A DNA stretch of 62,781 nucleotides, taken from a virus. Taxonomy: Duplodnaviria; Caudoviricetes. The notes under the pieces are model-generated. The model was not told the DNA's origin. It ran no database searches and saw only the letters and a list, made by a program, of their open reading frames with translations. The translations under genes and the position numbers were made by a program. Positions 1-62,190 of this stretch are shown one piece after another (the stretch's first letter is position 1; the number at the start of each line of letters is the position of its first letter). Where the stretch lies: positions 1-62,781 of IMG/VR virus record IMGVR_UViG_3300020171_000437, one strand, 5' to 3'.

Positions 1-287
1 ACCAAGAATTAGTTGTTGGTGAAGCACGGATTATAGGCCTCAAGCTGACACGGACGATTGGAGAGAGCAAAACAGAGATCACTCCCGATTCGGCAACCAT
101 TGCAGCCGTCGATGCTGAGGCCGTTGTGGTCATTACAGAAAAGGCAGCATCAATTTCAGGCACTGGTGTCTATTCTCTGATTTCTGTAGCGGACATCACA
201 GAAGCAGCCGGAGTGTTTACAGTTACATGGAAAGTAACCTACGGCACTGAAATCATCATCGAGACACAGACCATTACGGTGACATGA
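1..287 (+). CDS. 3' part of first late-operon gene (complete copy at 62191-62490); small beta-rich putative virion protein
   Basis: Same frame as 62191-62490; TGA overlaps ATG at 284 (ATGA). Confidence 0.8.
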   Translation, partial: QELVVGEARIIGLKLTRTIGESKTEITPDSATIAAVDAEAVVVITEKAASISGTGVYSLISVADITEAAGVFTVTWKVTYGTEIIIETQTITVT

Positions 288-551
288 ACTACATAGCGAC
301 CGATTTATATCCGAACTTTACATCGACCGACACTGCTGCGGCCTTTGAAGGCTTTGAATTCTGGTTCTACATCGAGACGCATGTTCATAGCGTGGTGATC
401 CCTACTGGCGCGATTGATGGCTCCAACACTTCGTACTCAGTCACAGCCGACCAGCTTGAGGTAATGATCAACGGCCTGCACGTGACGTTCACGAAGACAG
501 TAGGCGGGTTCACTCTTGATGAGGCCCCGACTGCTGGAGACATCTTGTGGT
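1..551. repeat. Left copy of imperfect terminal direct repeat (matches 62204-62781)
   Basis: Direct comparison: 1-300 has 4 SNPs (128, 182, 201, 227) plus one at 301; ~322-445 is diverged with a 27-nt indel; ~446-551 is identical. Confidence 0.97.
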
Positions 552-571
552 GTGAGGTGATTAACGAGTAA
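284..571 (+). CDS. Small beta-rich putative virion protein, paralog of 571-789
   Basis: PTGAIDGSNT...VMINGL...FTLDEAPTAGD motif; coupled start/stop at both ends. Confidence 0.75.
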   Translation: MNYIATDLYPNFTSTDTAAAFEGFEFWFYIETHVHSVVIPTGAIDGSNTSYSVTADQLEVMINGLHVTFTKTVGGFTLDEAPTAGDILWCEVINE

Positions 572-789
572 TGGCGCACTCGCACACCGATCCGATTACA
601 CCGACAGGGACAGTGAACGGAGTGAATACAGTGTTCACGTTGGCCACAACCTATGTTAAGGTGCGTTACTTCGTGAACGGACTAGAGCAGTTAGAGGACA
701 CGGACTACACGGTGGCAGGAACGGTCCTGACAGTAGATCCTCCGCCGGAAACAGGAGACGAGCATTGGATACTAGGGGAGGTTGCATGA
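571..789 (+). CDS. Small beta-rich putative virion protein
   Basis: PTGTVNGVNTVFTL...FVNGLEQ...DYTVAGTVLT...PPETGD; TAATG and ATGA coupling. Confidence 0.75.
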   Translation: MAHSHTDPITPTGTVNGVNTVFTLATTYVKVRYFVNGLEQLEDTDYTVAGTVLTVDPPPETGDEHWILGEVA

Positions 790-1274
790 TCCACAAGAGC
801 GCAGATGTGCATCCATCCGCCATTATCGGTGAAGGGACTCAGATTTGGAACAATGCGCAAGTGCGCGAAGGGGCCATCATTGGCTCCAATTGTCACATTG
901 GTTCAGGGGCGCACATCGGCAAGGGCGTTCTGATTGGTGACAACTGCAAGATTCTCAACAATGCCTGCCTGTTTGAAGGAGTGACGCTAGAAGATGGGGT
1001 GTTCGTTGGGCCCGGCTCGATATTTTGTAATGATTCTTACCCAAGGGCAGTTCATGAAGATGGCGCAATCATTGAGGCGGGAGAATGGCTCCCACAGCAT
1101 TCTTATGTCGCGAGCCAAGCATCAATCGGCGCGAACGCGACCATCCTGCCCGGAGTCTTTATTGGAATTGGTTCAATGATCGGCGCGGGGGCTGTAGTTA
1201 CGAAAGATACTCAGCCATGGCGCTTGTATGTAGGCAATCCAGCAAGGGAGATACGACAATGCCTAGTGACGTAA
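786..1274 (+). CDS. Left-handed beta-helix sugar N-acetyltransferase, WbpD/WlbB-like
   Basis: Hexapeptide repeats, GPGSIFCNDSYPR, IGAGAVVTKD...GNPAR; ATG at 786 after GGGGAGG. Confidence 0.92.
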   Translation: MIHKSADVHPSAIIGEGTQIWNNAQVREGAIIGSNCHIGSGAHIGKGVLIGDNCKILNNACLFEGVTLEDGVFVGPGSIFCNDSYPRAVHEDGAIIEAGEWLPQHSYVASQASIGANATILPGVFIGIGSMIGAGAVVTKDTQPWRLYVGNPAREIRQCLVT

Positions 1275-2323
1275 AGATTGCACAACCGATCATCGGAGAA
1301 GAAGAGAAGGCAGCCGTGATGGAAGTGCTTGAGTCTGGCAACATTGCTCAGGGAGAGAAGGTCGAAGAATTTGAAGCAGCGTTTGCCAAGTATGTAGGAG
1401 CACGACACGCCATTGCCGTTTCATCTGGGACAGCAGCCCTTCATCTGGCATTGCTTGCCAATGGGGTTGGTCCCCACACCGAAGTCATTACAACCCCCTT
1501 TAGCTTCATCTCAACAGCTAATGCCATCTTGCACTGTGATGCGACAGTAAAATTTGGCGATGTCAATCCTGTGTCGTTCAATCTGACTCCGGAATCTGCC
1601 GAAGCACAGATCGGCCCATCCACACGGGCGATCATGCCGGTGCATCTCTATGGCAACCCAGCCGATCTCGATGCGTTCAGGGCGCTAGGCAATAAGCATG
1701 GATTGATGATCATCGAGGATGCCTGCCAAGCGGTGGGGGCTGTCTACAAAGGGCAGAAGATTGGATCGATCAACACGACCTGTTTCTCTTTCTATCCCTC
1801 AAAAAATATGACCACTGCCGAGGGTGGCATGGTCACAACCCACGATGATGCCGTAGCCTGGAACGTTCGCAATATGAGACAGCACGGAATGGGCGGTAAA
1901 TCAGTTGGGTTCAATTATAGATTAACCGACATTCAGGCAGCAATAGGCATCGAACAGCTAAAGAAACTCGATGAGTTCAACTCAATCCGGCGCAAGAATG
2001 CCGAGATGCTGACTGCTGGCCTGTCTGAGATAGTTATATGCCCCGTGGGGGCCGAAGAGTCTACGCACTGCTGGCACCTATACACAATTCGTTTGAAACG
2101 AAGACGGCAAACAGTTCTCAAGGCCCTCCATGAGGCAGGTATTGATGCACGGGTGTATTACGAGAAGCCGATCCATCTCTGTCCTCCGTTTAACGGGAAG
2201 ACTATCTCTCGTCCGAATGCAGAGAAACTGTCGAATAACATTATCTCATTGCCGGTCCATCCTGGTGTGACAGAAGAAAACATCGCGACAATGATCGAGG
2301 TGATTACATGCGCATTGGCGTAA
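1259..2323 (+). CDS. DegT/DnrJ/EryC1/StrS PLP aminotransferase, WbpE/WlbC-like
   Basis: SSGTAALHLAL, PVHLYG, IEDACQA, SFYPSKNMTTAEGG (PLP lysine); start moved to MPSDVK. Confidence 0.95.
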   Translation: MPSDVKIAQPIIGEEEKAAVMEVLESGNIAQGEKVEEFEAAFAKYVGARHAIAVSSGTAALHLALLANGVGPHTEVITTPFSFISTANAILHCDATVKFGDVNPVSFNLTPESAEAQIGPSTRAIMPVHLYGNPADLDAFRALGNKHGLMIIEDACQAVGAVYKGQKIGSINTTCFSFYPSKNMTTAEGGMVTTHDDAVAWNVRNMRQHGMGGKSVGFNYRLTDIQAAIGIEQLKKLDEFNSIRRKNAEMLTAGLSEIVICPVGAEESTHCWHLYTIRLKRRRQTVLKALHEAGIDARVYYEKPIHLCPPFNGKTISRPNAEKLSNNIISLPVHPGVTEENIATMIEVITCALA

Positions 2324-3270
2324 TCGGCCTAGGGAACATGGGGCGCAATCATGCTCGTGTTCTATCCGAGATTGCTGATCTTGTTGCCGTGTGTGACACA
2401 TGTGCCGCTGCATTAGCAACCTGGCACGGCTCAGGGACTAAGTTTCTTGATCCAATGAAGATGCTGAAAGATCCTGACATGGCTCTCGATGCTGTTGTGG
2501 TAGCTGTCCCGACATCTAGACACGCTGTGATAACGATGACTGCAATCGAGGCAGGCATCGATGTCCTAGTAGAGAAGCCATTGGCTGGTAATGTTGGAGA
2601 CGCGCAGGTGCTTGTAGAGACAGCGAAAGAGAAAGGCGTCTTCCTCGCCACTGGGCACATCGAGCGATTCAACCCAGCGATCGTCGCGCTGAAAGATCGT
2701 TGGTCGCAGCTTGGCGAAGTGCATGAGATTGGCTTTGAGCGACTAGGCCCGTTCCCGGAGCATGTGCGCGATACTGGAGTCATTTACGATCTTGCCACTC
2801 ATGACTTTGATTTGCTGCGATATCTTGCTAGTCATTCTCCGATCATATCATTAGAGAGCCGATTCGTGATAGATAAAGGGATGGATGTCTCTGTCGCAGC
2901 GATTGCTCTACTAAAGGATGGCGGGATTGCAACATTCAGAGAAAGCTGGACGACCCCTACTAAGATCAGGCGCGTGACGGTATGGGGCGAGCAAGGGATG
3001 TTTGTTGCCGACCTGTTGCGTCAAGAACTGATGTTCTATGAAAACAATTATATCCCTGTTGATTGGGGAGCTATGGAGCCGTTCTTCGGAGTATCGGAGG
3101 GCGATGTGACACGGTACAAGATCAAGAAACAAGAGCCGTTAAGGCTTGAGTTGCAAGCGTTTCTTGATGCTGCTAATGGGCGAGGGAGAGACTGCCCAAC
3201 CGGGGAAGATGGACTCGAAGCCGTAAGGCTGGCTGAATGGATGAAGGAGGCCGCTGGATATGAGGAATAG
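2308..3270 (+). CDS. Gfo/Idh/MocA NAD-dependent oxidoreductase, WbpB/WlbA-like
   Basis: GVIGLGNMG, VLVEKP, GHIERFNPA, DLATHDFD. Confidence 0.93.
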   Translation: MRIGVIGLGNMGRNHARVLSEIADLVAVCDTCAAALATWHGSGTKFLDPMKMLKDPDMALDAVVVAVPTSRHAVITMTAIEAGIDVLVEKPLAGNVGDAQVLVETAKEKGVFLATGHIERFNPAIVALKDRWSQLGEVHEIGFERLGPFPEHVRDTGVIYDLATHDFDLLRYLASHSPIISLESRFVIDKGMDVSVAAIALLKDGGIATFRESWTTPTKIRRVTVWGEQGMFVADLLRQELMFYENNYIPVDWGAMEPFFGVSEGDVTRYKIKKQEPLRLELQAFLDAANGRGRDCPTGEDGLEAVRLAEWMKEAAGYEE

Positions 3271-3448
3271 AACGATGAAACGCAAGAAATTGCGCAACTA
3301 TCTGACAGAAAACTATGCAACCTTCATCACGTTCACGAAGAACCCAGAAAAAGGGCAAACTACGGCATATTACAAATGTCTTCGTGGTGCCCAAATGACG
3401 GAAGTTCTCGACAAGATTATGGAGATCTTCAGCGATGCAAAAAATTAG
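3260..3448 (+). CDS. Hypothetical protein
   Basis: Overlap-coupled ORF within the operon, upstream AAGGAGG. Confidence 0.5.
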   Translation: MRNRTMKRKKLRNYLTENYATFITFTKNPEKGQTTAYYKCLRGAQMTEVLDKIMEIFSDAKN

Positions 3449-3623
3449 AGCGAGTTCTCAGTTTAACGATGACGAATCGAGGCTACTTACTGATGACCAG
3501 AAAGCCTCTATTGCTGTGCTGATCACATCTGATCCTGCGGCTGGAGACTTCACAATAACTGAGATCTATCGGAATTCAAGTGGCCAGATCGTCGTTGTTT
3601 ATGATGACGTGGCTGTTTCATAA
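3435..3623 (+). CDS. Small protein with SDP...YDD C-terminal module shared with 3640-3996
   Basis: SDPAAGDFTITEIYRNSSGQIVVVYDD aligns with the next gene's C-terminus. Confidence 0.65.
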   Translation: MQKIRASSQFNDDESRLLTDDQKASIAVLITSDPAAGDFTITEIYRNSSGQIVVVYDDVAVS

Positions 3624-3639
3624 CAGGAGGTAGAAGAAA

Positions 3640-3996
3640 ATGGCACTAGCAAGTACAACGATGCCGACTTCAACAACGGTATCAACGGCTCAATCACACG
3701 CGCTTGTGGCGTCTTCGGCGGCGTCTCTCGCCACGATTGATGCGTCAGAAGCGTCCTCAATGGCATCATACGCATCAGTAAATGCGTCGATTGCTGACAG
3801 CATTGCAGATGACGCTATTATTGATGCGTCCGAGGCGAAGTCCACAGGCCTTGTCGATAGTTCGGCAGCCTCGGTAACGAAGTCGATGGCTGTCTACAGC
3901 GATCCAGGCGCTAACGAGTATCCGGTCAAAGAGATCGTTATGAACGCGACACTCGACATGATCGTTACCTATGACGACTCTTCGATCGCAGCATAG
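3640..3996 (+). CDS. Ser/Ala/Thr-rich fibre-like (coiled-coil) protein
   Basis: ASEAS-type repeats reminiscent of fibre shafts; strong AGGAGG RBS. Confidence 0.7.
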   Translation: MALASTTMPTSTTVSTAQSHALVASSAASLATIDASEASSMASYASVNASIADSIADDAIIDASEAKSTGLVDSSAASVTKSMAVYSDPGANEYPVKEIVMNATLDMIVTYDDSSIAA

Positions 3997-4005
3997 TGAA
4001 AATAT

Positions 4006-4027
4006 CGGGGGGCCTTCGGGCCTCCCG
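4006..4027 (+). terminator. GC-rich hairpin with TTCG loop (weak terminator or mRNA stabiliser)
   Basis: CGGGGGGCC-TTCG-GGCCTCCCG; no clear U tract. Confidence 0.5.
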
Positions 4028-4045
4028 GCTACTTAGGAGTTGAAT

Positions 4046-5101
4046 ATGAAGGCAGCGCATTTTTCGAGCTGGGCGCCCTCCAGAAGCGGGCTCTTCGAGG
4101 CAGCAAAAGATCTTGTTCTAGCCGAACGGGCTGCTGGCATTGACTCTATGTTCATCAATATGAGCGTGGCTGACCCTGAGAAGCATCTTGCTGAGTGCCC
4201 TGGCGGGAGACTGGACGAGGCAAACCTAAAACCCAGCACATGGGAAGAAGCCAAGGACGCTAAGATCTGGGTCGTCCATCGTGGCATTCCAGCAGAACTG
4301 GTAGAAGAGGCTAAGAAGCATTACACGATCATGGCCATTCACGGCTCTCCTGAACACGTCTTGATCAACGACATCGAGAACAGCGGGAACGTGCAGGGAT
4401 TCAATGATCACATCAACATGGTAAGGAACTACAGCAAGGCTGTGGCACTGAACGAGCACGACTTTCATATCTGGAAACTGTACGCCGATCCGGGGCAGGT
4501 TGTTCATATCGAAGACTCCATTGATGTCTCTCGCTACTCACCGGAAGGCTACGCATGGGAGTTCCACGGATTGCCAGCGATTCTCTATGCTGACGTGTGC
4601 CGCAACATCAAGTTGCCGTTCACGTTGTACTGGGCAATGGCTGGAATTCATGAGAAGTTACCTGAAGCAAGACTTGAGATGTACGGGCTGCCATTTGCCG
4701 AGATCAACACATTCAGAAACACAATGGTTAGGGCAAGCAACATCAATCTGTTGGGCACACTCGAATCTGTCCAGCTCATCACGTCTGATCTGAGGCCGAT
4801 GATGAGGGGGGCACACATTGGAGTGAATCCTAACCTTAGCGGTGTGAAGTCTAGGGTTACGATGGAAATGATGGCGTGCGGGCTTCCGGTTGTTGCTTCA
4901 AATGGTGACTACCCAATTCGGCAGTACCGCACTTATGACACGGTTGGACTCGAACGGGCGATCTGTGTGGCATGGGAAGATATCAAAAAGGACATTCCAG
5001 CCGCACGAGAGAAGGCCAGAGCATGGGCTGTTGAACATTGGGATGTTAAGAAAGCCGTAGAGACGGGATGGCTACCTCTCTACGAGGAGGCCATGAAGTA
5101 A
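4046..5101 (+). CDS. GT-B fold glycosyltransferase, GT4-like
   Basis: C-terminal RVTMEMMACGLPVVAS motif; IDVSRYSP; N-terminal SGLFEAAKDL. Confidence 0.88.
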   Translation: MKAAHFSSWAPSRSGLFEAAKDLVLAERAAGIDSMFINMSVADPEKHLAECPGGRLDEANLKPSTWEEAKDAKIWVVHRGIPAELVEEAKKHYTIMAIHGSPEHVLINDIENSGNVQGFNDHINMVRNYSKAVALNEHDFHIWKLYADPGQVVHIEDSIDVSRYSPEGYAWEFHGLPAILYADVCRNIKLPFTLYWAMAGIHEKLPEARLEMYGLPFAEINTFRNTMVRASNINLLGTLESVQLITSDLRPMMRGAHIGVNPNLSGVKSRVTMEMMACGLPVVASNGDYPIRQYRTYDTVGLERAICVAWEDIKKDIPAAREKARAWAVEHWDVKKAVETGWLPLYEEAMK

Positions 5102-5976
5102 TGGCACTACAGACGATCAAGGTCCATGATCTTAGCGAGATGGCGCAAGAGCCAGGGGCTGACGATACCGGGAAAGGAATCAGCATCCTTGCAACCGTTG
5201 ATGCCAACGCAACCGGCATTGGGGCTGCAATGCACGAGGCTGCCGATGGTAATTGGGATGAGGCGGATGCCAGTGCCAGCACAACGGCACCATGCACCGG
5301 CCTTGCTCTCACAGCAGGAACTGGTGCCGGTAAAGAAATCTTGCTGGTCGGGCTTGTTCGCAATGATGGATGGGCGTGGACTACTGGCCCCGGCTCGGCT
5401 AGCCTCATCTATCTCAGTGCTACGACGGGCGCACTGACACAGACGGCCCCGACAACGCCAGATTTAGTCCAAGTTGTAGGCCACGCCATCACTGACGATG
5501 TGATGTTCTTCAATCCTCAATTGCAGTGGATAGAACTCGTCGGCGCGGCCCAAGGAACTGCGATCTTTAAGACGGCTGATGAGTCGGTTACAAGTTCAAC
5601 AACACTTCAGAATGATGATGAGTTGTTATGTTCTGTCGGCGCGAACGAGACAGTCATGATAGATATGTTTCTTTATATATATTCTACTTCTGCTACGCCA
5701 GACTGGAAGGGTGGATTCTCATTCCCGACTGGAGGAAGTATCTATTTTGCGCCATTAGCGGCGCTCGGCGGAATTGGAGTATCCGTAGCTTCTGGGGAAA
5801 CGATAGGAATTTTCGGTATGACTGCCGCCGCTGTAGGAATAGTAAACCTAAGAGGTATATACGTTGGCGGAGCAAATGCAGGCACACTTCAATTTATCTG
5901 GGCGCAGAACATCTCTGATGCGACAACTGTAACCGTGAAAAAGGCGTCTGTGATGCGTGTTTGGAGGGGAGCGTAA
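5101..5976 (+). CDS. Putative head fibre / capsid decoration protein
   Basis: Cement-like N-domain (IYLSATTGALTQTAP...VQVVGHA) plus C-terminal beta-sandwich (KTADESVTSSTTLQNDDEL). Confidence 0.6.
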   Translation: MALQTIKVHDLSEMAQEPGADDTGKGISILATVDANATGIGAAMHEAADGNWDEADASASTTAPCTGLALTAGTGAGKEILLVGLVRNDGWAWTTGPGSASLIYLSATTGALTQTAPTTPDLVQVVGHAITDDVMFFNPQLQWIELVGAAQGTAIFKTADESVTSSTTLQNDDELLCSVGANETVMIDMFLYIYSTSATPDWKGGFSFPTGGSIYFAPLAALGGIGVSVASGETIGIFGMTAAAVGIVNLRGIYVGGANAGTLQFIWAQNISDATTVTVKKASVMRVWRGA

Positions 5977-6356
5977 TGCCATTGTTATTAACGTACGTAA
6001 ACAGGGAAGAGCGCAAGGCACATCTCGTGGCTCACTCAGACAAAGTAATGCTACATGACGATTACGATGCTGACTGGAAGCATGGTGATGAGATACATGG
6101 CGTTCTCACGCTTGCTTTGCCTGGCGAGATTGCTGCACGAGTTGTCACTGCGGATGAGATAGACAGCAATACAGAAGCAGCAATCAATATCAAGATTCAT
6201 CCAACTGCTCCGCTCGGAGAACAGATAGGCATCCTTCGCAGTCAGATTGTCCAGATGCTCAATGGTGATATGTCTGCCAGTGAGGAGTTCACACGGCTGA
6301 ACGAAATCGCGGCTACGGAGATTGAGAAATCAGCAGCAGAGAAGGCGGTGTTGTAA
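5976..6356 (+). CDS. Hypothetical protein, possible fibre chaperone
   Basis: TAATG-coupled to fibre gene. Confidence 0.5.
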   Translation: MPLLLTYVNREERKAHLVAHSDKVMLHDDYDADWKHGDEIHGVLTLALPGEIAARVVTADEIDSNTEAAINIKIHPTAPLGEQIGILRSQIVQMLNGDMSASEEFTRLNEIAATEIEKSAAEKAVL

Positions 6357-6514
6357 TGCCAAAGACAACCCGGATTGACGTGACGAAATCGGACAAGCGT
6401 AAAATGGCTATCGAATCCCTGAAAGCTCGCGGCCCAGCATCGAACGAGAACAGCGTGCCGCAGTTGAGAGAACGAGTCGCGTTGCTTGAAGAGATACTTG
6501 GGTTGGAGGGCTAA
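6356..6514 (+). CDS. Small hypothetical protein, 52 aa (below ORF-track cutoff)
   Basis: Hand translation MPKTTRIDV...LEEILGLEG; fills the gap exactly with TAATG coupling. Confidence 0.6.
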   Translation: MPKTTRIDVTKSDKRKMAIESLKARGPASNENSVPQLRERVALLEEILGLEG

Positions 6515-6823
6515 ATGACACAGACAGTGATGCCAAGACGACTGCATGAGGCGGCGCTGGCAGCGATGAAACGGCTACTTGACCTTGGCGAACTTGCGTT
6601 TAGCAGTGGTGGTGGGCGCGAATCTGGTGCCTTCCGCAATTACAAGTTCCAGGTAATGCAACACATTGCCGACATGGAGCGAGAGCAGTTCGCGATCTTG
6701 AGTGATATTGGGCATGTAGAGCCATGTGAATGTGGCGACTCGCTAGTTGGTGGTCCGCGCTGGACAAGATGCGAGTTGTGTGCTGGAAGCGGATTCAAGC
6801 CTACAGGAGGCAAGAAGGAATGA
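6515..6823 (+). CDS. Hypothetical Zn-finger protein
   Basis: CECG...CELCAGSG; GGAGG RBS. Confidence 0.6.
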   Translation: MTQTVMPRRLHEAALAAMKRLLDLGELAFSSGGGRESGAFRNYKFQVMQHIADMEREQFAILSDIGHVEPCECGDSLVGGPRWTRCELCAGSGFKPTGGKKE

Positions 6824-8229
6824 AGACGATGGACAGATTAGCCGGGAGCCTTGGCGTCGTTGTCCCGCACGGGAAAGAGGCGGGCATTGCAAGGCCACGC
6901 GCACTTGATGATGGGTATAGCGACCGCGCATCCCGCGATTCCGATACATCTGATCTGATCTTTGCATATCGTTACCACTCGTGGGTATACAGCGCGGTGA
7001 GGGCTATTGCCGGGGCTTGTTCGTCTGTTCCGTTTGTTGTCATCAATTATCGTGGAACGGGGACGAGGAAGCCGCGACCTGTACGTGATTTTGCGATGAA
7101 GTATCGGTCAATTCAGGGATGGAATGAGATCCAGGATTGGGAGAAGCTCATGGACGCTTATCTCAAATCTGAGAACGCAGAGATCGTCACAGATCATGAA
7201 GTGCTTGATCTGCTTGCCCATCCTATGCCAGAAGCGGACAAGACGCGCACAGAGCTAATCCAGGCCATCGTAACAAACCTTGAACTAGACGGCAACGCAT
7301 ACGTTGAGAAGATTTGGAAGACGGGAAGAAGGGACGGAATCCCATCACAGCTTTGGGCAGAGATTGATCCCAGAAAGATCTACGTTATCCCGGGCAAAGG
7401 GGTTGTCTTCGGCGGCTTCATGTACGTTGGCGATACGGTCAAGTATTTCTTGCCGGAAGACATACTGGCATTCCGGTACTACAACCCATTGAATCCTTAT
7501 TATGGCCAATCTCCGACGCGGGTACTACGAACGGCGATTATCGGTGATGTTCGAGCTGTCGATTGGAACAGGATGTTCTTCGAGAACGATGCCACTCCGG
7601 GCGGGCTTATCTCTTCAAAAGAGAGGCTGACGCCTGATGACATCCGACTCATTGAGGACTCATGGAACAGCAAGAGGCGTGGTGCGGGGCGCTCTCACGG
7701 AATAGGGGTATTGGGTCTAGGGTCTACATTCCAGGCTCTCTCGCCAGCTCACAAAGATATGGGGTTTAAGGATTTGCGAGAGCTAACACAGCAAGAGGTA
7801 CAGGCAACATACGGCGTTCCTTCTGTTGTGCTAGGAAACTACAAGGATGCAAACCGTGCATCAGCAGTGACGCAGGCGCGGTTGTTTACTACCAACACGG
7901 TTCTACCGAGACTGGCAAAGATTGAATCTGTCCTTGATCGACACTTCTTCGGTGTTGATGGCAAGACGAAACTGATGTTTGACCTGTCGACGATTGAGGC
8001 GCTTCAAGAAGACATTCTCATTCGGGCACGAGCAGGAAGGTTGTTCACAGAGCAGCGATTCACTGTGAACGAGATCAGGGCGTTCAACAAACTGCCTCCG
8101 ATCTTGGGACAGTTTGCTGATGCTGTTCTCGTTCCGAACAACATGGTCGTCGCTGGCAGGATAGAAGGGTCTGAGGATGGACCAAATACAACGGCACCAG
8201 AAGAAGAAATAACGGAGGTGGAGACATAA
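6820..8229 (+). CDS. Portal protein, HK97 family
   Basis: VYSAVRAIA, LELDGNAY, YGQSP, FFENDATPGG, TVNEIRA. Confidence 0.95.
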   Translation: MKTMDRLAGSLGVVVPHGKEAGIARPRALDDGYSDRASRDSDTSDLIFAYRYHSWVYSAVRAIAGACSSVPFVVINYRGTGTRKPRPVRDFAMKYRSIQGWNEIQDWEKLMDAYLKSENAEIVTDHEVLDLLAHPMPEADKTRTELIQAIVTNLELDGNAYVEKIWKTGRRDGIPSQLWAEIDPRKIYVIPGKGVVFGGFMYVGDTVKYFLPEDILAFRYYNPLNPYYGQSPTRVLRTAIIGDVRAVDWNRMFFENDATPGGLISSKERLTPDDIRLIEDSWNSKRRGAGRSHGIGVLGLGSTFQALSPAHKDMGFKDLRELTQQEVQATYGVPSVVLGNYKDANRASAVTQARLFTTNTVLPRLAKIESVLDRHFFGVDGKTKLMFDLSTIEALQEDILIRARAGRLFTEQRFTVNEIRAFNKLPPILGQFADAVLVPNNMVVAGRIEGSEDGPNTTAPEEEITEVET

Positions 8230-10016
8230 TGAAACGAGTAGGCGCTTTTATAGCTTTACTCATGGTGGGCCTGATCTCGTTTGGTGGGATGGCAGCACTC
8301 GACTGGGAAACTTACATCGGGGGCGTCTATTTCCTCAATCTTGAACAGGCTGTGTTGACCGGGTTCACGTCAACGGGGATGTTTGATCTCATCGGCGGGG
8401 CACGGTTCGACAATGTGACGGCAGCTACGACACTCAGCATTACCGAAACGAACCTTGCATTCGCAGGGGTTACTACTTTCTATGGGGCAACGTTTAGCTT
8501 CGGATATGATGTCGGTGCAGCAATGACGTTCACGCCTACGGATGCAACAGGCGCAGTGGCGATCACACATGCTGGATCGGCCCCCGCGATCACATGGACA
8601 GCGGATTCGTTGGCTTTTACAGGAAACTTCAGTTCTGACGGGACAACGGCTGTTCTTGATGGCAGCACATCAGCCAGGATTCTCAGTGCGGGCTTTACGA
8701 GCTTAGAATCTGCGGCAAACCGTTTTGGCGTAAATGCGACAATCTATATGTCGGTCGCAACGACAGCGACAACTGGTATCACGACGATAACTCACACGGG
8801 TACGACCCCCACAGTAACTTGGACGGCGGACTCGTTTAGCTTCGTCGGTGCATTCAGTTCAGACAGCGCATCAACGGCTGTAGTCGATGGCGCAACATCA
8901 TTCCGTGGATTGAGTGCGGGATTCGTTAGCCTAGAATCTCCAGCGAATCGATTTGGCTTGAATGCCACCGAATACATACAGATTGCAACAACTATAACTA
9001 CTGGCATCACAACAATCACGCATACGGGATCAGCTCCTGCTGTAACGTGGACTGCTGACTCTCTGTCATTCGTTGGCAGTTTCGATACGAATGGCGCGAC
9101 GGTATCTCTAGACGGTAGTACATCGGTTCGTGCGATCAGTGCTGGCTTTAACAGTCTCGAATCTCCAGGAAACCGTTTCGGATCAGATGTAGCTGTCTAT
9201 ATGCAGATTGCGACGACTGCCACAACTGGAATCACTGCCATTACTCATACCGGATCAGCTGTTACTGTTACATGGACGGCCCCCGCATTTGACTTCGTTG
9301 GCACGATGGCGCTAGATGCCACAACGCTATCAGATGTGTTGACGTTCTCGGACGCAGGAACAATCGACAACACAGCAGCCGACACATTGACGATTACTGA
9401 AACCTACATCGCGCTTGCTGGAGAAGTGTCTATCAGCGGAGACCTCACGGTGACTGGTGGAGACATCATTGATGGCTCGGGTGGCGGCGCAACCGTAGCG
9501 AATAAGGGCACCTCCGTCGAAACGATGGGCGGGGCACAGAAGACCGTCATTACCTTCACATTGACTGGCGATCACGACATCGACACCCCTGATGGTGGAC
9601 AGTCTGCTGGCGTTCTGGTCTACGACTTCCCAGTGGGCTATATCCAAATCCTCGGTGCGTTGATTGATGCGTCGGTTGTGACGAATGCTGCCTACAACGC
9701 AACAGTAGCCGACCAATACTATATCAGTGTGGGAACTGTGGATGGTACGCAAGCAGCGAATGCCGATCTGACTGGCACCGAAGCTGACATCATCGCAAAG
9801 ACAACTCACGATACCGACTCAGGTGCCGGGGCAAACACACAACTCACGAATACGTGGCACGCTCAAGATTTGACCGCCGAGACGTTTGACGGAACGGGTA
9901 CAGCCATAGATCTCTTCGTGAACGTGGCTGTGCCGGATGCAAACAATACTGGCGCAACGACCCACGCGGTCACGGGAACCTTGACGATCTTCTGGATCAA
10001 CCATGGTGGGTACTAG
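8229..10016 (+). CDS. Thr-rich repeat protein with N-terminal signal-peptide-like segment
   Basis: MKR + hydrophobic core + GGMA; about 3.3 copies of a ~75-aa repeat (TGITTITHTG...WTADS...LES.ANRFG). Confidence 0.8.
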   Translation: MKRVGAFIALLMVGLISFGGMAALDWETYIGGVYFLNLEQAVLTGFTSTGMFDLIGGARFDNVTAATTLSITETNLAFAGVTTFYGATFSFGYDVGAAMTFTPTDATGAVAITHAGSAPAITWTADSLAFTGNFSSDGTTAVLDGSTSARILSAGFTSLESAANRFGVNATIYMSVATTATTGITTITHTGTTPTVTWTADSFSFVGAFSSDSASTAVVDGATSFRGLSAGFVSLESPANRFGLNATEYIQIATTITTGITTITHTGSAPAVTWTADSLSFVGSFDTNGATVSLDGSTSVRAISAGFNSLESPGNRFGSDVAVYMQIATTATTGITAITHTGSAVTVTWTAPAFDFVGTMALDATTLSDVLTFSDAGTIDNTAADTLTITETYIALAGEVSISGDLTVTGGDIIDGSGGGATVANKGTSVETMGGAQKTVITFTLTGDHDIDTPDGGQSAGVLVYDFPVGYIQILGALIDASVVTNAAYNATVADQYYISVGTVDGTQAANADLTGTEADIIAKTTHDTDSGAGANTQLTNTWHAQDLTAETFDGTGTAIDLFVNVAVPDANNTGATTHAVTGTLTIFWINHGGY

Positions 10017-10018
10017 CC

Positions 10019-10126
10019 ATGAAGGTCAGAACGGTTCCTGGTAAGCGGGCCTGGGCGAGTGGTGGGCGTCCGAAGGGCGGGAATAAAGAGGGCGACCCTC
10101 TCCGTAAGGGGGTAGTGAAGAAATGA
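10019..10126 (+). CDS. 35-aa basic peptide (below ORF-track cutoff)
   Basis: MKVRTVPGKRAWASGGRPKGGNKEGDPLRKGVVKK; TGA overlaps protease ATG. Confidence 0.5.
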   Translation: MKVRTVPGKRAWASGGRPKGGNKEGDPLRKGVVKK

Positions 10127-11178
10127 CTATTAGCCAAGCGAACATGACCGAAGTTAGACTGGCAGGGAAGGAAGTGAACACGCTTCTTTCCGGCCAAGAT
10201 CTTCGGGACGCGCTCCAAGGCAAAGAGGTTGACGCTATCTACAAATATAGCGTTGCCGATCAAAGCCGTGGCGGCGAAGTCAAAGCAATTCACACGATGA
10301 AGGGCGAATACCTAACCGGGATGCGTCCTATTGGAAAGTCCGTGATTACGTCTGCAACGATTGACCGCGACAAAGACATTGTCTTCACGAGTGGCATGAA
10401 GCTGACAGATGGATACATGAAGAATCCAGTTGTGCTTCCGATGCACCTCTATCGGGAGTTTCCAATTGGGTTTACGAAGCAGATCACGCAGTATGCGAAT
10501 CATGTGACTGCGACATGGGAATGGCTGACAGACCAACCGTTGACCAAGGCTGCGGAATACTACCAGCTTTGGGCAGCATATGTTCTGAATGCCGTTTCAA
10601 TCGGCTTTGCCCCCGACGAGTGGGAATGGAACAAAGGCCGGAGCGGACTTGATTTCGTTACCTGGGAGTTATTGGAGCATAGCATTGTGACGATCCCGGC
10701 GAATCCTGACGCACAACGGAGCCTGGGCGCGAAGCAATACATCAAACTCGTTGGTGAAAAGCTCATTGAAATGTCTCCGATTGTGCGTCGGGGACTGGAG
10801 ATAGCATTAACAGATGGAACAACTGTCAGCGTCAATTTGCCTGACGGCATGAAGAACAATGTCTCTAAACCTGATAACGAAAATGTGACTGCTGATGGAA
10901 CAATCGAAGCCAAGACAGAGGTACTTAGCGATAAGGCAAACGAGCCTGTCGTAGAGGAGCCAGAAGCCGTCGAGGCAAGTGTTAGCGTAGAAGAGACAGA
11001 AGGGCAGAAGTCTTTTGATGAAATCCTGTTGGCGTATGCCGCTGGGGTGATGGAGAAAAGCGAAGTTTTAGGCGTTCTGAACAAAGTGTTCAGTGCGCTT
11101 GAGGCGGAGCGCGATCTCTACAAAGGACAACTTGTCAACATGGCTCTCTCGATCATTGCAACAAAATCGGAGGTGTAA
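10123..11178 (+). CDS. Prohead maturation protease, HK97-type
   Basis: IDRDKDIV, NPVVLPMH, AVSIGF, LLEHSIVTIPANPDA. Confidence 0.93.
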   Translation: MTISQANMTEVRLAGKEVNTLLSGQDLRDALQGKEVDAIYKYSVADQSRGGEVKAIHTMKGEYLTGMRPIGKSVITSATIDRDKDIVFTSGMKLTDGYMKNPVVLPMHLYREFPIGFTKQITQYANHVTATWEWLTDQPLTKAAEYYQLWAAYVLNAVSIGFAPDEWEWNKGRSGLDFVTWELLEHSIVTIPANPDAQRSLGAKQYIKLVGEKLIEMSPIVRRGLEIALTDGTTVSVNLPDGMKNNVSKPDNENVTADGTIEAKTEVLSDKANEPVVEEPEAVEASVSVEETEGQKSFDEILLAYAAGVMEKSEVLGVLNKVFSALEAERDLYKGQLVNMALSIIATKSEV

Positions 11179-11180
11179 GC

Positions 11181-12398
11181 ATGAAGCTGGAAGACCTTAC
11201 CAAAGAGCAGCTTCAGGGATTGGTGGACAAAGGCTCCGAGTATCTCGAAGCCATGAAGGCGGGGACTCCCGGTGAGACCAAGGTAATCCTTGACGGACCA
11301 GAGATGAAGAAGCCTGATGAACTCACGGCTATTGATCTCGACGCCGCACTCACTCGTGAACCCGAGACAGTCCTACGATCCACGAAGCAGAAGGATGATG
11401 AGCTGAAGAACTTCAGCATCACAAAGGGCGTACAATTCATTCTGACCGGCCAGCGCAAAGGAAACGAGCTGGAAGCAGACTGGATTCGTAGCCGTGATGG
11501 CTTCGCGCCATCAACAAATAAGGACATGACCCTTTACAGCGATATTGCTGGCGGATTCCTGGTTCCTACGGTTGTCATCAACGAACTGATCGATCTTCTG
11601 AAGGCAGAAACGATCATGCGTCGAGCTGGCGCAACGATCTTGACATCGAATGCAAAGACCGTTCAGGTGCCACGGAAGACTGGATCGACAAGTGCATACT
11701 GGGTTGCCGATGAAATTACTACGGACATCACCAAGTCTGCCCCGACGTTCGGAGACCTGAACTTGACACTCAGAAATCTGGCTGCGCGGGTGCAGGTTGC
11801 GCGGAATTTGATCAAGTACGCATCGTTGTCAGTAGAGACACTCATCCGGCAAGACATCATCGAACAGATGGCGCTTACGGAGGATCTGGCCTTCCTTCAG
11901 GGGACGGGCGGAACACAGCCTGTCGGCCTGAAGAACTGGCCCGGAGTCAACTCTACCAGTTCGATCGGTGCGCCGAACTTCGACGACCTTCTAGCATGTC
12001 TGACGACTCTCAAGGCCCGCAACGTGCGTGTCTCTGAGAAGCAGACGAGCTGGTGGATGCACCCGAACGTGCTTGGGTATCTACAGAAGCACAAGACTGG
12101 TACTGGTCAGTACGATTACGTTATCGACCTGACTCAGCGACCTCCAGACCGAATTCTCGGCCTGCCTGTCTACACCAGTTCGCAGATCCCGATTACCCTC
12201 GGTGCTGGTAGCGAGACCTACATGGTCTGTGGCAATGCCAACACCTACGCGATTGCGCAGGGTGGCGGCATCGAGATCTTGGTAGATCCATACACGTTGT
12301 CGGCTCAACTGAAGATCCAGATCGTCGCCGTGTTTGAAGTAGACGGTGGCCCTCGCCGGATCGACGAGTTCCAGGTTCTTACTGGAGTAACTTACTAG
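11181..12398 (+). CDS. Major capsid protein, HK97 fold
   Basis: GGFLVPT, EDLAFLQGTG..QPVGL, WWMHP, ILGLPVY. Confidence 0.95.
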   Translation: MKLEDLTKEQLQGLVDKGSEYLEAMKAGTPGETKVILDGPEMKKPDELTAIDLDAALTREPETVLRSTKQKDDELKNFSITKGVQFILTGQRKGNELEADWIRSRDGFAPSTNKDMTLYSDIAGGFLVPTVVINELIDLLKAETIMRRAGATILTSNAKTVQVPRKTGSTSAYWVADEITTDITKSAPTFGDLNLTLRNLAARVQVARNLIKYASLSVETLIRQDIIEQMALTEDLAFLQGTGGTQPVGLKNWPGVNSTSSIGAPNFDDLLACLTTLKARNVRVSEKQTSWWMHPNVLGYLQKHKTGTGQYDYVIDLTQRPPDRILGLPVYTSSQIPITLGAGSETYMVCGNANTYAIAQGGGIEILVDPYTLSAQLKIQIVAVFEVDGGPRRIDEFQVLTGVTY

Positions 12399-12408
12399 GA
12401 GGTGAAGA

Positions 12409-60872: not shown

Positions 60873-60881
60873 GGAGATCTG

Positions 60882-62081: not shown

Positions 62082-62083
62082 GT

Positions 62084-62178: not shown

Positions 62179-62190
62179 TGTGGAGGCGTG

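What the first reader, a model, noticed from the sequence alone, without database searches (positions are those of the whole stretch)
786..5101. Phage-encoded amino-sugar pathway plus glycosyltransferase at the head of the virion operon: candidate self-supplied virion glycosylation system
Seen: a beta-helix acetyltransferase, a DegT aminotransferase and a Gfo/Idh/MocA dehydrogenase overlap each other, and a GT4 follows. All are translationally coupled to small structural-type genes upstream of the portal, where terminase genes normally lie. Known: the WbpB/WbpE/WbpD (WlbA/C/B) trio converts UDP-GlcNAcA to UDP-GlcNAc(3NAc)A, and GT-mediated virion glycosylation is documented in some actinophages. 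Inference: this phage makes its own rare 3-acetamido donor late in infection and attaches it to Ser/Thr-rich virion proteins (3640-3996, 5101-5976, 8229-10016). No WbpA-type C6 dehydrogenase is present, so the substrate is host-derived or the pathway acts on UDP-GlcNAc, as GnnA/GnnB do.
Basis: partly seen in the sequence, partly recalled or inferred. Interest (0 to 1): 0.9.

Follow-up and report, generated by a model that had tools for sequence, protein, structure and literature searches.

The report
Phage fibre glycosylation gene cassette
An uncultured tailed phage carries three enzymes predicted to make a rare doubly N-acetylated sugar, beside a sugar-attaching enzyme that in every relative found sits next to an alanine/serine-rich fibre-like protein, so the phage probably decorates part of its own particle with a sugar it makes itself.

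Summary
Window 786-5101 encodes a left-handed beta-helix N-acetyltransferase, a DegT aminotransferase, a Gfo/Idh/MocA dehydrogenase and a GT-B/GT4-type glycosyltransferase. They overlap or abut small genes and lie upstream of the portal.

The dehydrogenase is GnnA-like (UDP-GlcNAc 3-dehydrogenase), not WbpB/WlbA-like, and no WbpA-type gene is present. The likely product is therefore UDP-2,3-diacetamido-2,3-dideoxyglucose made from host UDP-GlcNAc.

The new result is comparative. The glycosyltransferase belongs to an unnamed family of 351 representatives, with no tblastn match in GenBank phages. In 19 of 19 loci examined, with GT identity down to 34-38%, an Ala/Ser-rich protein (window 3640-3996) ends 22-76 nt upstream of the GT on the same strand. 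In 18 of 19 a second protein with the same ~34-residue C-terminal mini-domain lies further upstream.

The sugar-tailoring genes differ between lineages: this trio, SAM methyltransferases, or DegT plus GNAT. The module sits among portal, capsid, connector or tail genes. In one relative the same cassette follows the tape measure gene instead of preceding the portal.

No thymidylate-synthase-type hydroxymethylase, integrase or GT2 was found. Virion fibre O-glycosylation is the best reading (about 0.55), but no glycan has been shown.

The parts
284..571 (+). Small protein (95 aa), paralogue of 571-789. No family assigned.
   Evidence: Clusters with 571-789 in the all-against-all BLASTP (fam 8). 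Conserved in L003 at 68%. No Pfam or PHROG hit.
571..789 (+). Small protein (72 aa). Its stop overlaps the acetyltransferase start.
   Evidence: 85% identical in L002 and L003. ATGA overlap read. No family hit.
786..1274 (+). Left-handed beta-helix N-acetyltransferase of the 3-amino-sugar type (WlbB/QdtC/FdtD-like).
   Evidence: Hexapep 3.3e-31. Best solved relatives are 7s3u 2.9e-31, 4mzu 3.7e-30, 3mqg 5.5e-26 and 3fs8 QdtC 4.1e-21.
1256..2323 (+). DegT-family PLP sugar aminotransferase.
   Evidence: PF01041 at 409 bits. WbpE 2.1e-59 and QdtB 5e-59, but perosamine synthetase and ArnB score higher. The SFYPSKN lysine motif is read.
2308..3270 (+). Gfo/Idh/MocA NAD-dependent sugar 3-dehydrogenase, GnnA-like.
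   Evidence: NF040723 UDP-GlcNAc 3-dehydrogenase at 211.6 bits, cut-off 450. 7bvj at 1.9e-26 over residues 1-288, with the EKP and GHIxR motifs aligned. Cellular homologues at 42-46% identity are named UDP-N-acetylglucosamine 3-dehydrogenase by JGI.
3260..3448 (+). Small basic protein (62 aa), function unknown.
   Evidence: 74% identical in L002 and L003. No family hit.
3435..3623 (+). 62-aa protein that is little more than the C-terminal mini-domain shared by the fibre-like proteins.
   Evidence: Mini-domain HMM 9.6e-20. The same domain closes collagen-like and 1264-aa proteins in L019 and L012.
3640..3996 (+). Ala/Ser-rich protein (118 aa: 25 Ala, 23 Ser, 11 Thr) with the C-terminal mini-domain. 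It is the constant upstream partner of the GT and the proposed acceptor.
   Evidence: Composition. Its family is found directly upstream of the GT in 19 of 19 loci. Alignment A5. AGGAGG ribosome-binding site. Atlas lead to viral alanine-zipper clusters at score 0.78, a lead only.
4005..4028 (+). 10-bp GC-rich hairpin with a UUCG loop between the Ala/Ser-rich gene and the GT. No T-run follows.
   Evidence: -20.5 kcal/mol, z = -2.11, 8 of 200 shuffles fold as well. Kept with changed stem bases in L002 and L005. Other hairpins stand at the same place in L019, L032 and L006, and none in L009, L012 or L013.
4046..5101 (+). GT-B fold, GT4-like glycosyltransferase of an unnamed phage-associated family. 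GT4 is a retaining family.
   Evidence: Pfam 31.4 bits. AF2 model with pLDDT 94.6. Foldseek hits MshA, HepE, PglA, BshA, GtfA and PimA at E 1e-13 to 1e-10. 351 family representatives. No maximum hydropathy window above 1.05.
5101..5976 (+). 291-aa protein following the GT. Its N-domain (1-146) recurs after the GT in relatives and may be capsid-cement-like.
   Evidence: Homologues follow the GT in L002 and L003 (duplicated N-domain) and L006. Atlas structural lead: residues 9-147 match ~140-aa viral proteins, and one such cluster is 19% Phage_cement_2. No Pfam hit even at E<=5.
6730..8229 (+). Portal protein (context).
   Evidence: PF04860 3.6e-52 and phrog_2662 3.6e-63.

Best explanation
This is a self-contained virion-glycosylation cassette.

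Inferred from family relationships: the dehydrogenase (2308-3270) oxidises host UDP-GlcNAc at C3. The DegT enzyme (1256-2323) transaminates the 3-keto sugar. The beta-helix enzyme (786-1274) N-acetylates the new amine. The product is UDP-2,3-diacetamido-2,3-dideoxy-glucose or a very similar 3-acetamido UDP-sugar.

Inferred from gene pairing and analogy: the soluble GT4-like enzyme (4046-5101) transfers this sugar in the cytoplasm to Ser/Thr of the Ala/Ser-rich protein encoded just upstream (3640-3996). It may also act on the neighbouring proteins that share that protein's C-terminal mini-domain or follow the GT (3435-3623, 5101-5976). These proteins are then built into the particle as short fibres or decorations.

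Shown here: the enzyme families, the GT fold, the strict GT/partner gene pair, the position among virion genes, and the swapping of sugar-tailoring genes between lineages.

Not shown: the sugar, the transfer, the acceptor, and whether the partner is in the virion.
For: 1. Pathway.
- Dehydrogenase: best NCBIfam model is UDP-GlcNAc 3-dehydrogenase. Best PDB entry is 7bvj, which a preprint passage identifies as GnnA. The nearest cellular homologues at 42-46% identity carry the JGI name UDP-N-acetylglucosamine 3-dehydrogenase.
- Acetyltransferase: the four best solved relatives are 7s3u, 4mzu, 3mqg and QdtC.
- Aminotransferase: full-length DegT.
- No UDP-sugar 6-dehydrogenase in the record.

2. 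GT.
- Confident GT-B model.
- Nearest folds are GT4 enzymes that use UDP-HexNAc or UDP-hexose. They include GtfA, which O-GlcNAcylates serine-rich repeat proteins.
- H99, G15, R186, R270 and E274 are invariant or nearly so across 70 homologues.
- No hydrophobic segment.

3. Gene pair.
- In 19 of 19 loci (the window, 16 IMG/VR loci and 2 MAG contigs, 9 lineage groups, GT identity down to 34-38%) a member of the Ala/Ser-rich family ends 22-76 nt upstream of the GT on the same strand.
- The partner HMM was built from 9 of these loci; the other 10 also match.
- In 18 of 19 a further mini-domain protein lies upstream.

4. Virion context.
- Portal follows in W, L002 and L003.
- Tape measure plus Dit-like gene precede in L004 and L005.
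- Portal, protease and capsid precede and gp6-like and gp10-like connectors follow in L009 and L013.
- Portal and head closure precede and a Dit-like gene follows in L014-L018.
- A virion structural protein precedes in L012.
- Mini-domain proteins include collagen-like (GYSGISG) and 1264-1694-aa fibre-like proteins.

5. Modularity.
- Between the window and G001 the cassette proteins are 48-75% identical. Portal and capsid are 33% and TerL 44%.
- The cassette sits at a different place in the virion module of G001.
- Other lineages carry class I methyltransferases or DegT plus GNAT instead of the trio.
- 15 of 36 long family members are GT-methyltransferase fusions.
- This is the pattern expected of a glycan that is being varied on a constant acceptor.

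6. Rivals lack their parts.
- No ThyA-type hydroxymethylase.
- No tyrosine or serine recombinase.
- No GT2.

7. A hairpin follows the partner gene in 6 of the 9 loci examined. This fits an abundant structural product followed by a catalytic one.
Against: - No glycan, transfer or virion protein has been observed. Everything beyond the family assignments is inference.
- The Ala/Ser-rich protein and the mini-domain have no Pfam or PHROG assignment. Their virion location rests on neighbours and on fibre-like relatives.
- The dehydrogenase scores 211.6 bits against an equivalog cut-off of 450.
- The aminotransferase's best solved relatives are a scyllo-inositol transaminase, perosamine synthetase and ArnB. 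WbpE and QdtB follow. C3 regiochemistry is therefore inferred from its partners.
- In the window the cassette adjoins DNA-metabolism and HNH genes.
- In L006 the module is followed by convergent primase and polymerase genes.
- A weak ThyX-like match exists at 37855-38382 (15.8 bits, below cut-off).
- The record is estimated 94% complete, so a missing gene cannot be excluded.
- The 19 loci fall into only about 9 independent lineages, and several loci are near-duplicates.
- The hairpin z-score is modest.
Confidence: 0.55

Rival explanations
1. Virion glycosylation, but of other proteins. The GT decorates capsid, tail-tube or tail-fibre subunits, as reported for mycobacteriophages. The Ala/Ser-rich protein is an adaptor, chaperone or scaffold for the GT rather than the acceptor.
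For: The module lies next to capsid or tail genes. Passages in PMC12619734 report glycans on the C-termini of capsid and tail-tube subunits in Mycobacterium phages. Other Ser/Thr-rich virion-region proteins exist here, such as 8229-10016 at 26% S+T with roughly four ~75-residue repeats.
Against: The only gene that stays beside the GT in all 19 loci is the Ala/Ser-rich one, while capsid and tail neighbours change. The partner's serine-rich repeats of variable length look like a substrate rather than an enzyme cofactor.
Confidence: 0.17
2. Host envelope modification. The cassette makes a 3-acetamido sugar that the GT adds to a lipid-linked or cell-wall glycan of the host, for example to block superinfection or re-adsorption of progeny.
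For: GT4 enzymes such as PglA, WaaG, PimA and TarM, which act on lipid-linked or envelope acceptors, are among the structural neighbours. GnnA/WbpE-type genes on viral contigs have been catalogued as auxiliary metabolic genes (PMC12783922, passages read).
Against: - No integrase or recombinase.
- No GT2 or Gtr-type gene.
- No hydrophobic segment in the GT or the trio beyond beta-helix or Rossmann cores.
- Position inside virion modules, not a lysogeny module, in several lineages.
- This reading does not explain the constant Ala/Ser-rich partner.
Confidence: 0.12
3. DNA hypermodification. The GT glycosylates a modified base in phage DNA with the amino sugar, to evade restriction.
For: Phage GTs that glycosylate DNA are known (passage and reference to Pyle et al. 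2024 in PMC12619734). In the window the cassette follows DNA-metabolism genes. A dCTP-deaminase-like gene (46678-47277), a Lar-like restriction-alleviation gene and a weak ThyX-like match are present.
Against: No ThyA-family hydroxymethylase. The ThyX-like match is below cut-off at 15.8 bits. In the relatives the GT sits among capsid, connector and tail genes, always beside a fibre-like protein. The fold neighbours listed are general GT4 enzymes, and no DNA glucosyltransferase appears among the PDB rows shown.
Confidence: 0.05
4. The glycoprotein is made but is not part of the virion. It could be a released or intracellular Ala/Ser-rich glycoprotein acting on the host or on competing phages.
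For: The virion location of the partner is not shown, and it has no structural family assignment.
Against: Its C-terminal mini-domain is shared with collagen-like and very long fibre-like proteins in virion modules. It has no signal peptide-like hydrophobic N-terminus.
Confidence: 0.08

Closest known systems
Virion glycosylation in actinobacteriophages (Freeman et al. 2023). The paper is not held; it is known here only through passages in PMC12619734 and PMC13313380.
   Same: Phage-encoded glycosyltransferases, often with methyltransferases, lie in or near virion genes and are held to glycosylate particle proteins. The wider family of this GT is likewise tied to methyltransferases.
   Different: - No sequence relationship was found: tblastn of the GT against 50,697 GenBank phage records gives no match at E<=1e-3.
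- The reported acceptors there are capsid and tail-tube C-termini. Here the constant partner is a separate Ala/Ser-rich protein.
- This cassette adds a three-enzyme route to its own donor sugar. Whether any actinophage does so I could not check.
Giant-virus fibril glycosylation with virus-encoded rare amino-sugar pathways (Megavirinae; PMC10117803 and PMC8456856, abstracts seen in the listing).
   Same: The virus makes its own bacterial-type amino sugars and attaches them to a fibre layer of the particle. The sugar sets differ between clades.
   Different: Those are eukaryotic giant viruses with gene clusters of different enzymes (viosamine and bacillosamine routes). This is a ~63-kb tailed phage with a 3-dehydrogenase/3-aminotransferase/3-N-acetyltransferase route and a different GT family.
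GnnA/GnnB and the archaeal UDP-GlcNAc to UDP-GlcNAc3NAc route; WbpB/WbpE/WbpD (WlbA/C/B). The pathway steps are from my own knowledge.
   Same: The same three chemistries in the same order: C3 oxidation, transamination, N-acetylation of a UDP-2-acetamido sugar. The dehydrogenase is nearest GnnA. The acetyltransferase is near 3mqg, which I recall as WlbB.
   Different: - The dehydrogenase is not a WbpB/WlbA orthologue.
- No WbpA and no later oxidation or epimerase gene is present.
- It is below the equivalog cut-off.
- The genes lie in a phage virion region, not an LPS, lipid A or archaeal glycan locus.
GtfA/GtfB O-GlcNAcylation of serine-rich repeat adhesins in Gram-positive bacteria.
   Same: A soluble GT4-type GT-B enzyme acts in the cytoplasm on Ser-rich, Ala-containing repeats. 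GtfA (4pqg, 5e9t) is among the fold neighbours, at E 4.4e-12 and TM 0.66.
   Different: Only fold-level likeness, at 14-16% identity. There is no GtfB-like partner and no accessory Sec system. The acceptor here is short (118 aa) and ends in a phage-specific mini-domain.

Membership tests
GT-B / GT4-like glycosyltransferases | Two Rossmann-like domains (GT-B fold) | tested here: met
   AF2 model pLDDT 94.6, pTM 0.93. Foldseek probability 1.00 to MshA, HepE, BshA, PglA, PimA and GtfA, TM up to 0.73.
GT-B / GT4-like glycosyltransferases | Pfam Glyco_trans_1_4 / Glycos_transf_1 match over the gathering score | tested here: met
   PF13692 at 31.4 bits against a cut-off of 27. PF00534 at 24.0 bits is below its cut-off of 26.4.
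GT-B / GT4-like glycosyltransferases | Conserved C-terminal-domain donor-binding residues (Arg/Lys and the Glu of the E-x7-E region) | tested here: inconclusive
   R186, R254, R270, E274 and G279 are nearly invariant and H99 is invariant in 70 homologues. Mapping these to the canonical motif is my reading, not a superposition.
GT-B / GT4-like glycosyltransferases | Retaining stereochemistry; donor identity | not testable with these tools
   Needs an enzyme assay.
GnnA-type UDP-GlcNAc 3-dehydrogenase | Gfo/Idh/MocA N- and C-domains with the EKP motif | tested here: met
   PF01408 6.6e-23 and PF22725 4.8e-10. VEKPLA and GHIERFNP align to 7bvj.
GnnA-type UDP-GlcNAc 3-dehydrogenase | Scores over the NCBIfam equivalog cut-off (NF040723, archaeal) | tested here: not met
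   211.6 bits against a cut-off of 450. It is nevertheless the best model by a wide margin; the next is iolG at 108.7 bits.
GnnA-type UDP-GlcNAc 3-dehydrogenase | Closer to GnnA than to other solved Gfo/Idh/MocA enzymes | tested here: met
   7bvj at 1.9e-26 is the best of 58 matches. 7bvj is identified as GnnA in a bioRxiv passage.
WbpB/WlbA UDP-GlcNAcA 3-dehydrogenase with WbpA upstream | Orthology to WlbA/WbpB, and a UDP-GlcNAc 6-dehydrogenase in the cluster | tested here: not met
   3q2k at 9.5e-9 and 3q2i at 7.2e-7 (their identity as WlbA is recalled) fall far behind 7bvj. No PF03721 gene is present.
DegT/DnrJ/EryC1 sugar aminotransferases | Full-length family match and a PLP-lysine motif | tested here: met
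   409 bits over profile positions 2-359 of 360. SFYPSKN is read; calling this the PLP lysine is from recall.
DegT/DnrJ/EryC1 sugar aminotransferases | C3 regiospecificity (WbpE/GnnB/QdtB-like) | tested here: inconclusive
   WbpE at 2.1e-59 and QdtB at 5e-59 are outranked by a scyllo-inositol transaminase, perosamine synthetase and ArnB.
3-amino-sugar LbH N-acetyltransferases (WlbB/QdtC/FdtD type) | Hexapeptide beta-helix with closest solved relatives in this group | tested here: met
   Hexapep 3.3e-31. 7s3u, 4mzu, 3mqg and 3fs8 are the four best matches. The substrates of 7s3u and 4mzu and the identity of 3mqg as WlbB are recalled.
3-amino-sugar LbH N-acetyltransferases (WlbB/QdtC/FdtD type) | NCBIfam NeuD/PglB/VioB subfamily cut-off | tested here: not met
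   104.2 bits against 160.8. That family is the 4-amino-sugar group, so this does not count against the 3-amino assignment.
Actinophage-type virion glycosylation system | GT encoded within or beside virion structural genes | tested here: met
Actinophage-type virion glycosylation system | Homology to GTs of GenBank phage records, which I assume include the glycosylated actinophages | tested here: not met
   No tblastn match in 50,697 GenBank phage records. Only fold-level hits to Arthrobacter and Gordonia phage GTs.
Actinophage-type virion glycosylation system | Glycan found on virion proteins | not testable with these tools
   Needs virions and mass spectrometry.
Phage DNA glycosylation (hydroxymethyl-pyrimidine glycosyltransferases) | A thymidylate-synthase-family hydroxymethylase to make the acceptor base | tested here: not met
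   PF00303 has no match; the control search hit 10 of 14 reference genomes. PF02511 gives a weak 15.8-bit match only.
Lysogenic-conversion O-antigen modification (Gtr-type) | Integrase or recombinase and a GT2 bactoprenol glycosyltransferase | tested here: not met
   PF00589, PF00239 and PF00535 have no match.

The most novel reading that the evidence does not exclude
A widespread, undescribed module of tailed phages has three parts. One is a dedicated GT4-like glycosyltransferase family. The second is its cognate Ala/Ser-rich short fibre, which ends in a ~34-residue C-terminal mini-domain that may be foldon-like. The third is an exchangeable slot for sugar-tailoring genes: methyltransferases, DegT plus GNAT, or the full UDP-GlcNAc to UDP-GlcNAc3NAc trio seen here.

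With it, phages outside the Actinobacteria would coat a virion fibre with a self-made, lineage-specific rare sugar. That would be a small-genome counterpart of the glycosylated fibrils of giant viruses. The cassette would move between head and tail modules by recombination.
Probability: 0.4. Interest if true: 0.8.

Novelty: new variant of a known kind. Interest (0 to 1): 0.66.

Why it matters
Protein glycosylation of phage particles is established experimentally only for a few actinobacteriophages, and there I know of no dedicated acceptor protein. If this reading holds, three things follow.

- A tailed phage of ordinary size carries everything needed to make and attach a rare diacetamido sugar: donor pathway, transferase and acceptor.
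- The GT/partner pair is a recognisable marker for finding such systems in viromes, where these genes are at present listed as auxiliary metabolic genes such as gnnA and wbpE (passages of PMC12783922).
- A compact four-enzyme-plus-substrate set becomes available for testing in E. coli. It could be useful for protein glyco-engineering and for asking what a glycan coat does for a phage: stability, adhesion, or escape from recognition.

Tried and rejected
- **First GT model.** The first AlphaFold run used only 9 close sequences and gave pLDDT 42. I discarded it and used a 70-sequence alignment instead.
- **Close relatives.** megablast of window 1-12000 against GenBank phages found nothing. The portal has only relatives below 28% identity there. 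tblastn of the dehydrogenase gave weak, mostly partial hits, several in records that look like bacterial contigs. A single-protein scan of IMG/VR with the dehydrogenase found nothing.
- **GT homologues.** The word-indexed search found only 8 close homologues. The exhaustive profile search was needed.
- **PDB by sequence.** The GT has no PDB match by sequence, best E 0.4.
- **Pfam on the unassigned proteins.** At E<=5, 5101-5976 got no hit and the Ala/Ser-rich proteins only sub-threshold hits. There was no Phage_cement_2 hit and Alanine_zipper scored only E 1-1.8. The cement and alanine-zipper ideas therefore remain Atlas leads.
- **Mini-domain scan.** A degenerate DNA scan of IMG/VR for one form of the mini-domain motif gave 9 stretches. 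Three are contigs already held and one (L031) is a new true case at a contig end. The other five lack a significant mini-domain match, and none of the six newly fetched stretches holds the GT. It neither widened nor narrowed the co-occurrence.
- **Complex prediction.** Complex prediction of the GT with the 3640-3996 protein returned no answer, score 0.00. This is not evidence either way.
- **RNA runs.** The look-up of sequencing runs listed no RNA holder. This is not evidence on expression, and read laying was not used.
- **Repeats.** Tandem Repeats Finder saw no DNA-level repeat in 8229-10016. The ~75-residue protein repeats were seen by motif positions only.
- **tRNAs, promoters and terminators.** No tRNA was found. 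The promoter/terminator consensus scan of 1-12500 found fewer sites than shuffles and nothing at the cassette borders.
- **Closed or unavailable.** Freeman et al. 2023 is not held. Supplements of the papers cited were not opened. The AMG tables of PMC12783922 might list contigs like this one.
- **Host.** The host was not determined. Two contigs with distant GT relatives are binned in Syntrophorhabdus and Deltaproteobacteria MAGs and a 2.1-kb fragment is in an Anaerolineales MAG. That is weak evidence, and not for this phage.

Full report
**What the record is.** The window is a whole IMG/VR virus record of 62,781 bp. It is classed as linear and estimated 94% complete. It has no close relative among 50,697 GenBank phage records, and its portal finds only relatives below 28% identity there. 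It is a siphovirus-type genome. Assigned genes are:
- portal 6730-8229;
- a protease/scaffold-like gene 10123-11178;
- HK97-type capsid 11181-12398;
- head-tail adaptor 12812-13444;
- tape measure 17105-23278;
- a tail-fibre-like gene 27453-28916;
- large terminase at 34337-36070, far from the portal.

The right end of the record carries a DNA polymerase exonuclease subunit and an HNH endonuclease. A dCTP-deaminase-like gene, a Lar-like gene and a Cas4-like exonuclease lie elsewhere in the record. In relative L003 the homologues of 60287-62490 run directly into those of 284-789. The break in the record is therefore arbitrary, and the cassette lies between that gene block and the portal.

**The observation.**
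- a hexapeptide-repeat acetyltransferase, 786-1274;
- a DegT aminotransferase, 1256-2323 (409 bits);
- a Gfo/Idh/MocA dehydrogenase, 2308-3270;
- a glycosyltransferase, 4046-5101, that passes the Glyco_trans_1_4 gathering score.

The genes overlap by 4, 19, 16, 11 and 14 nt up to 3623. A short gap with AGGAGG then precedes 3640-3996. A 49-nt gap with a hairpin precedes the GT. The GT stop overlaps the start of 5101-5976.

**The sugar pathway.** The dehydrogenase's best NCBIfam model is archaeal UDP-GlcNAc 3-dehydrogenase. It scores 211.6 bits, below the equivalog cut-off of 450, and the next model scores 108.7. Its best solved relative is 7bvj at 1.9e-26 over residues 1-288, with the EKP and GHIxR motifs aligned. 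A preprint passage identifies 7bvj as GnnA, UDP-GlcNAc 3-dehydrogenase. The entries I recall as WlbA (3q2k, 3q2i) score only 9.5e-9 and 7.2e-7. Cellular homologues at 42-46% identity are named UDP-N-acetylglucosamine 3-dehydrogenase by JGI's automatic annotation.

The acetyltransferase's four best solved relatives are 7s3u, 4mzu, 3mqg and QdtC. From recall, these are all N-acetyltransferases of 3-amino sugars. The aminotransferase is an ordinary DegT enzyme. WbpE and QdtB match at about 1e-59, but a scyllo-inositol transaminase, perosamine synthetase and ArnB match better, so its C3 specificity is inferred from its neighbours. No UDP-sugar 6-dehydrogenase is present. The most economical reading is UDP-GlcNAc, then the 3-keto sugar, then the 3-amino sugar, then UDP-2,3-diacetamido-2,3-dideoxyglucose.

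**The glycosyltransferase.** It has no sequence match in the PDB, none in GenBank phages, and only 8 close relatives in the word-indexed search. An exhaustive profile search found 351 cluster representatives at E<=1e-3, of which 52 are at E<=1e-30.

With 70 of these as the alignment, AlphaFold gives a confident GT-B model with pLDDT 94.6. Its nearest solved folds are GT4 enzymes: MshA, HepE, PglA, BshA, PimA and WaaG. They also include GtfA, the O-GlcNAc transferase of serine-rich repeat adhesins. Viral neighbours are GT1-type enzymes of giant viruses, actinophages and uncultured phages.

I scanned 36 long family members. Of these, 15 carry Methyltransf_11 domains and 7 carry FkbM-type methyltransferase domains. 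One carries a GT11 and one a GT2-like domain. Five are interrupted by inteins. The protein has no hydrophobic segment.

**The comparative result.** Scans of IMG/VR with the GT gave 16 loci. The genome collection gave two MAG contigs with a full GT and one fragment. I grouped these into 9 lineages by similarity.

An HMM of the 3640-3996 family (alignment A5) finds a member ending 22-76 nt upstream of the GT, on the same strand. This holds in 19 of 19 loci including the window. Nine of the loci supplied the HMM and the other ten also match.

The family has three features:
- a conserved start (MA..S.tF.P);
- an Ala/Ser-rich repeat region of variable length;
- a C-terminal stretch related to a ~34-residue mini-domain (consensus ..S.P..GEY.VK.I.L.....VVVYDD.P).

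The same mini-domain ends the 62-aa product of 3435-3623, collagen-like proteins (GYSGISG repeats) in L019, and a 1264-aa protein in L012, which holds two copies. A mini-domain protein lies upstream of the pair in 18 of 19 loci. The exception is L006, where the contig starts 70 nt before the pair.

Neither family is in Pfam or PHROGs. The likeness of the mini-domain to a foldon-type trimerisation unit is my own inference and was not tested.

**Where the module sits, and what varies.**
- In the window, L002 and L003 it precedes the portal.
- In L004 and L005 (GT 75% identical) the same order is kept: acetyltransferase, aminotransferase, dehydrogenase, Ala/Ser protein, GT. There it follows the tape measure and a Dit-like gene.
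- On the full 69.5-kb record G001, TerL, portal, capsid, tape measure and cassette lie in that order on one strand.
- The cassette proteins are 48-75% identical between the two phages. Portal and capsid are 33% and TerL 44% identical. The cassette therefore looks exchanged as a unit.
- In L009 and L013 the pair follows portal, protease and two capsid paralogues, and precedes gp6-like and HK97 gp10-like connector genes. L009 additionally has a DegT, a GNAT acetyltransferase and methyltransferases inserted among those.
- In L014-L018, L032 and L033 it lies between portal/head-closure genes and a Dit-like gene. C1q-like and collagen-like proteins lie nearby.
- In five groups a class I SAM methyltransferase occupies the slot between the mini-domain protein and the Ala/Ser protein. 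In L004 and L005 the amino-sugar trio occupies that same slot.
- L006 is the least clear case. The pair is followed by an Ala/Ser-headed protein related to 5101-5976, and then by convergent primase and polymerase genes.

**A small RNA feature.** A 10-bp GC-rich hairpin with a UUCG loop lies between the partner gene and the GT (4005-4028). It folds at -20.5 kcal/mol with z = -2.11, and 8 of 200 shuffles fold as well. It is kept with different stem bases in L002 and L005. Other hairpins stand at the same place in L019, L032 and L006, and none in L009, L012 or L013. I read it as a possible attenuator or stabiliser that lets the partner be made in larger amounts than the enzyme. This is inference.

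**Rivals.**
- DNA glycosylation lacks its usual prerequisite. There is no ThyA-family gene and only a sub-threshold ThyX-like match.
- Lysogenic conversion of host glycans lacks an integrase, a recombinase and a GT2. It does not explain the partner gene.
- Glycosylation of other virion proteins remains quite possible and is a variant of the same idea.
- None of these is excluded by experiment.

**Comparison with what is known.**
- Passages in two papers record that glycans are found on capsid and tail-tube C-termini of Mycobacterium phages. They also record that a GT plus a methyltransferase is taken to suggest glycosylated virions in other actinophages. The primary paper is not held.
- Abstracts record that Megavirinae make clade-specific rare amino sugars for their fibrils with their own pathways.
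- A sediment virome paper lists viral gnnA and wbpE as auxiliary metabolic genes without a structural interpretation.
- My searches of the held library found no description of this GT family, of the Ala/Ser partner, or of a phage-encoded 2,3-diacetamido-sugar route tied to virion genes. That is a statement about those searches only.

**Verdict.** This is a GnnA-type rather than a WbpB-type pathway. It is a mobile cassette rather than a fixed operon head. There is one specific candidate acceptor. I rate it a new variant of a known kind (virus-encoded virion glycosylation), with interest 0.66. The chemistry and the acceptor are directly testable in E. coli.

Noticed in passing
window 34337-36070; G001:C1:31696-33276 (locus L036): The large terminase lies after the tail and presumed lysis genes, about 26 kb downstream of the portal. 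In relative G001 it lies about 6 kb upstream of the portal, and the match there contains one in-frame TGA.
   Followed up: partly
proteins P0013, P0016 and other long members of the GT family: 5 of 36 long family members carry intein splicing domains and 3 carry LAGLIDADG endonuclease domains inside the glycosyltransferase. An intein in a sugar transferase is unusual and suggests the gene is important to its phages.
   Followed up: no
window 8229-10016: A 595-aa protein just after the portal has a strongly hydrophobic N-terminus (KD 2.26) and about four ~75-residue Thr/Ser-rich repeats (ITHTGS...NRFG). It has no family. Only its first ~160 residues are conserved in L002.
   Followed up: partly
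window 61488-62081: An HNH endonuclease gene is absent from the otherwise collinear stretch of relative L003. It is probably a mobile insertion.
   Followed up: no
L009 5040-7302; L013 4455-6716: Two tandem paralogues of the HK97-type major capsid protein (407 and 341 aa) lie in the lineage-D phages.
   Followed up: no
L009 17224-20938: A second set of tailoring genes sits among head-tail connector genes: DegT aminotransferase, GNAT acetyltransferase, an N6_N4 DNA-methylase-like protein and a Methyltransf_24 protein.
   Followed up: partly
L014 7584-8369; L019 2853-8733; L014 8774-9994: A C1q-domain protein and collagen-like repeat proteins (GYSGISG, GDKGDKG) lie next to the GT module in other lineages. 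This recalls the collagen-like glycosylated fibres of giant viruses.
   Followed up: no
window 37855-38382 (-) and 46678-47277 (+): A weak ThyX-like match (15.8 bits, below cut-off) and a dCTP-deaminase/dUTPase-like gene are present. Together they look like ordinary dTTP supply, but this was not examined further.
   Followed up: no
L005 8317-9522: In lineage B the dehydrogenase ORF is 401 aa, about 88 residues longer than in the window. It clusters with the window's separate 62-aa gene 3260-3448 (fam 3). The two may be fused there, or the ORF call may run on.
   Followed up: no
L032, L033, L034: Contigs carrying distant GT relatives are binned in MAGs labelled Syntrophorhabdus, Deltaproteobacteria UBA8936 and Anaerolineales. 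L032 and L033 look like phage contigs from portal to tail genes, so the binning may reflect host or chance. L034 is a 2.1-kb fragment.
   Followed up: partly
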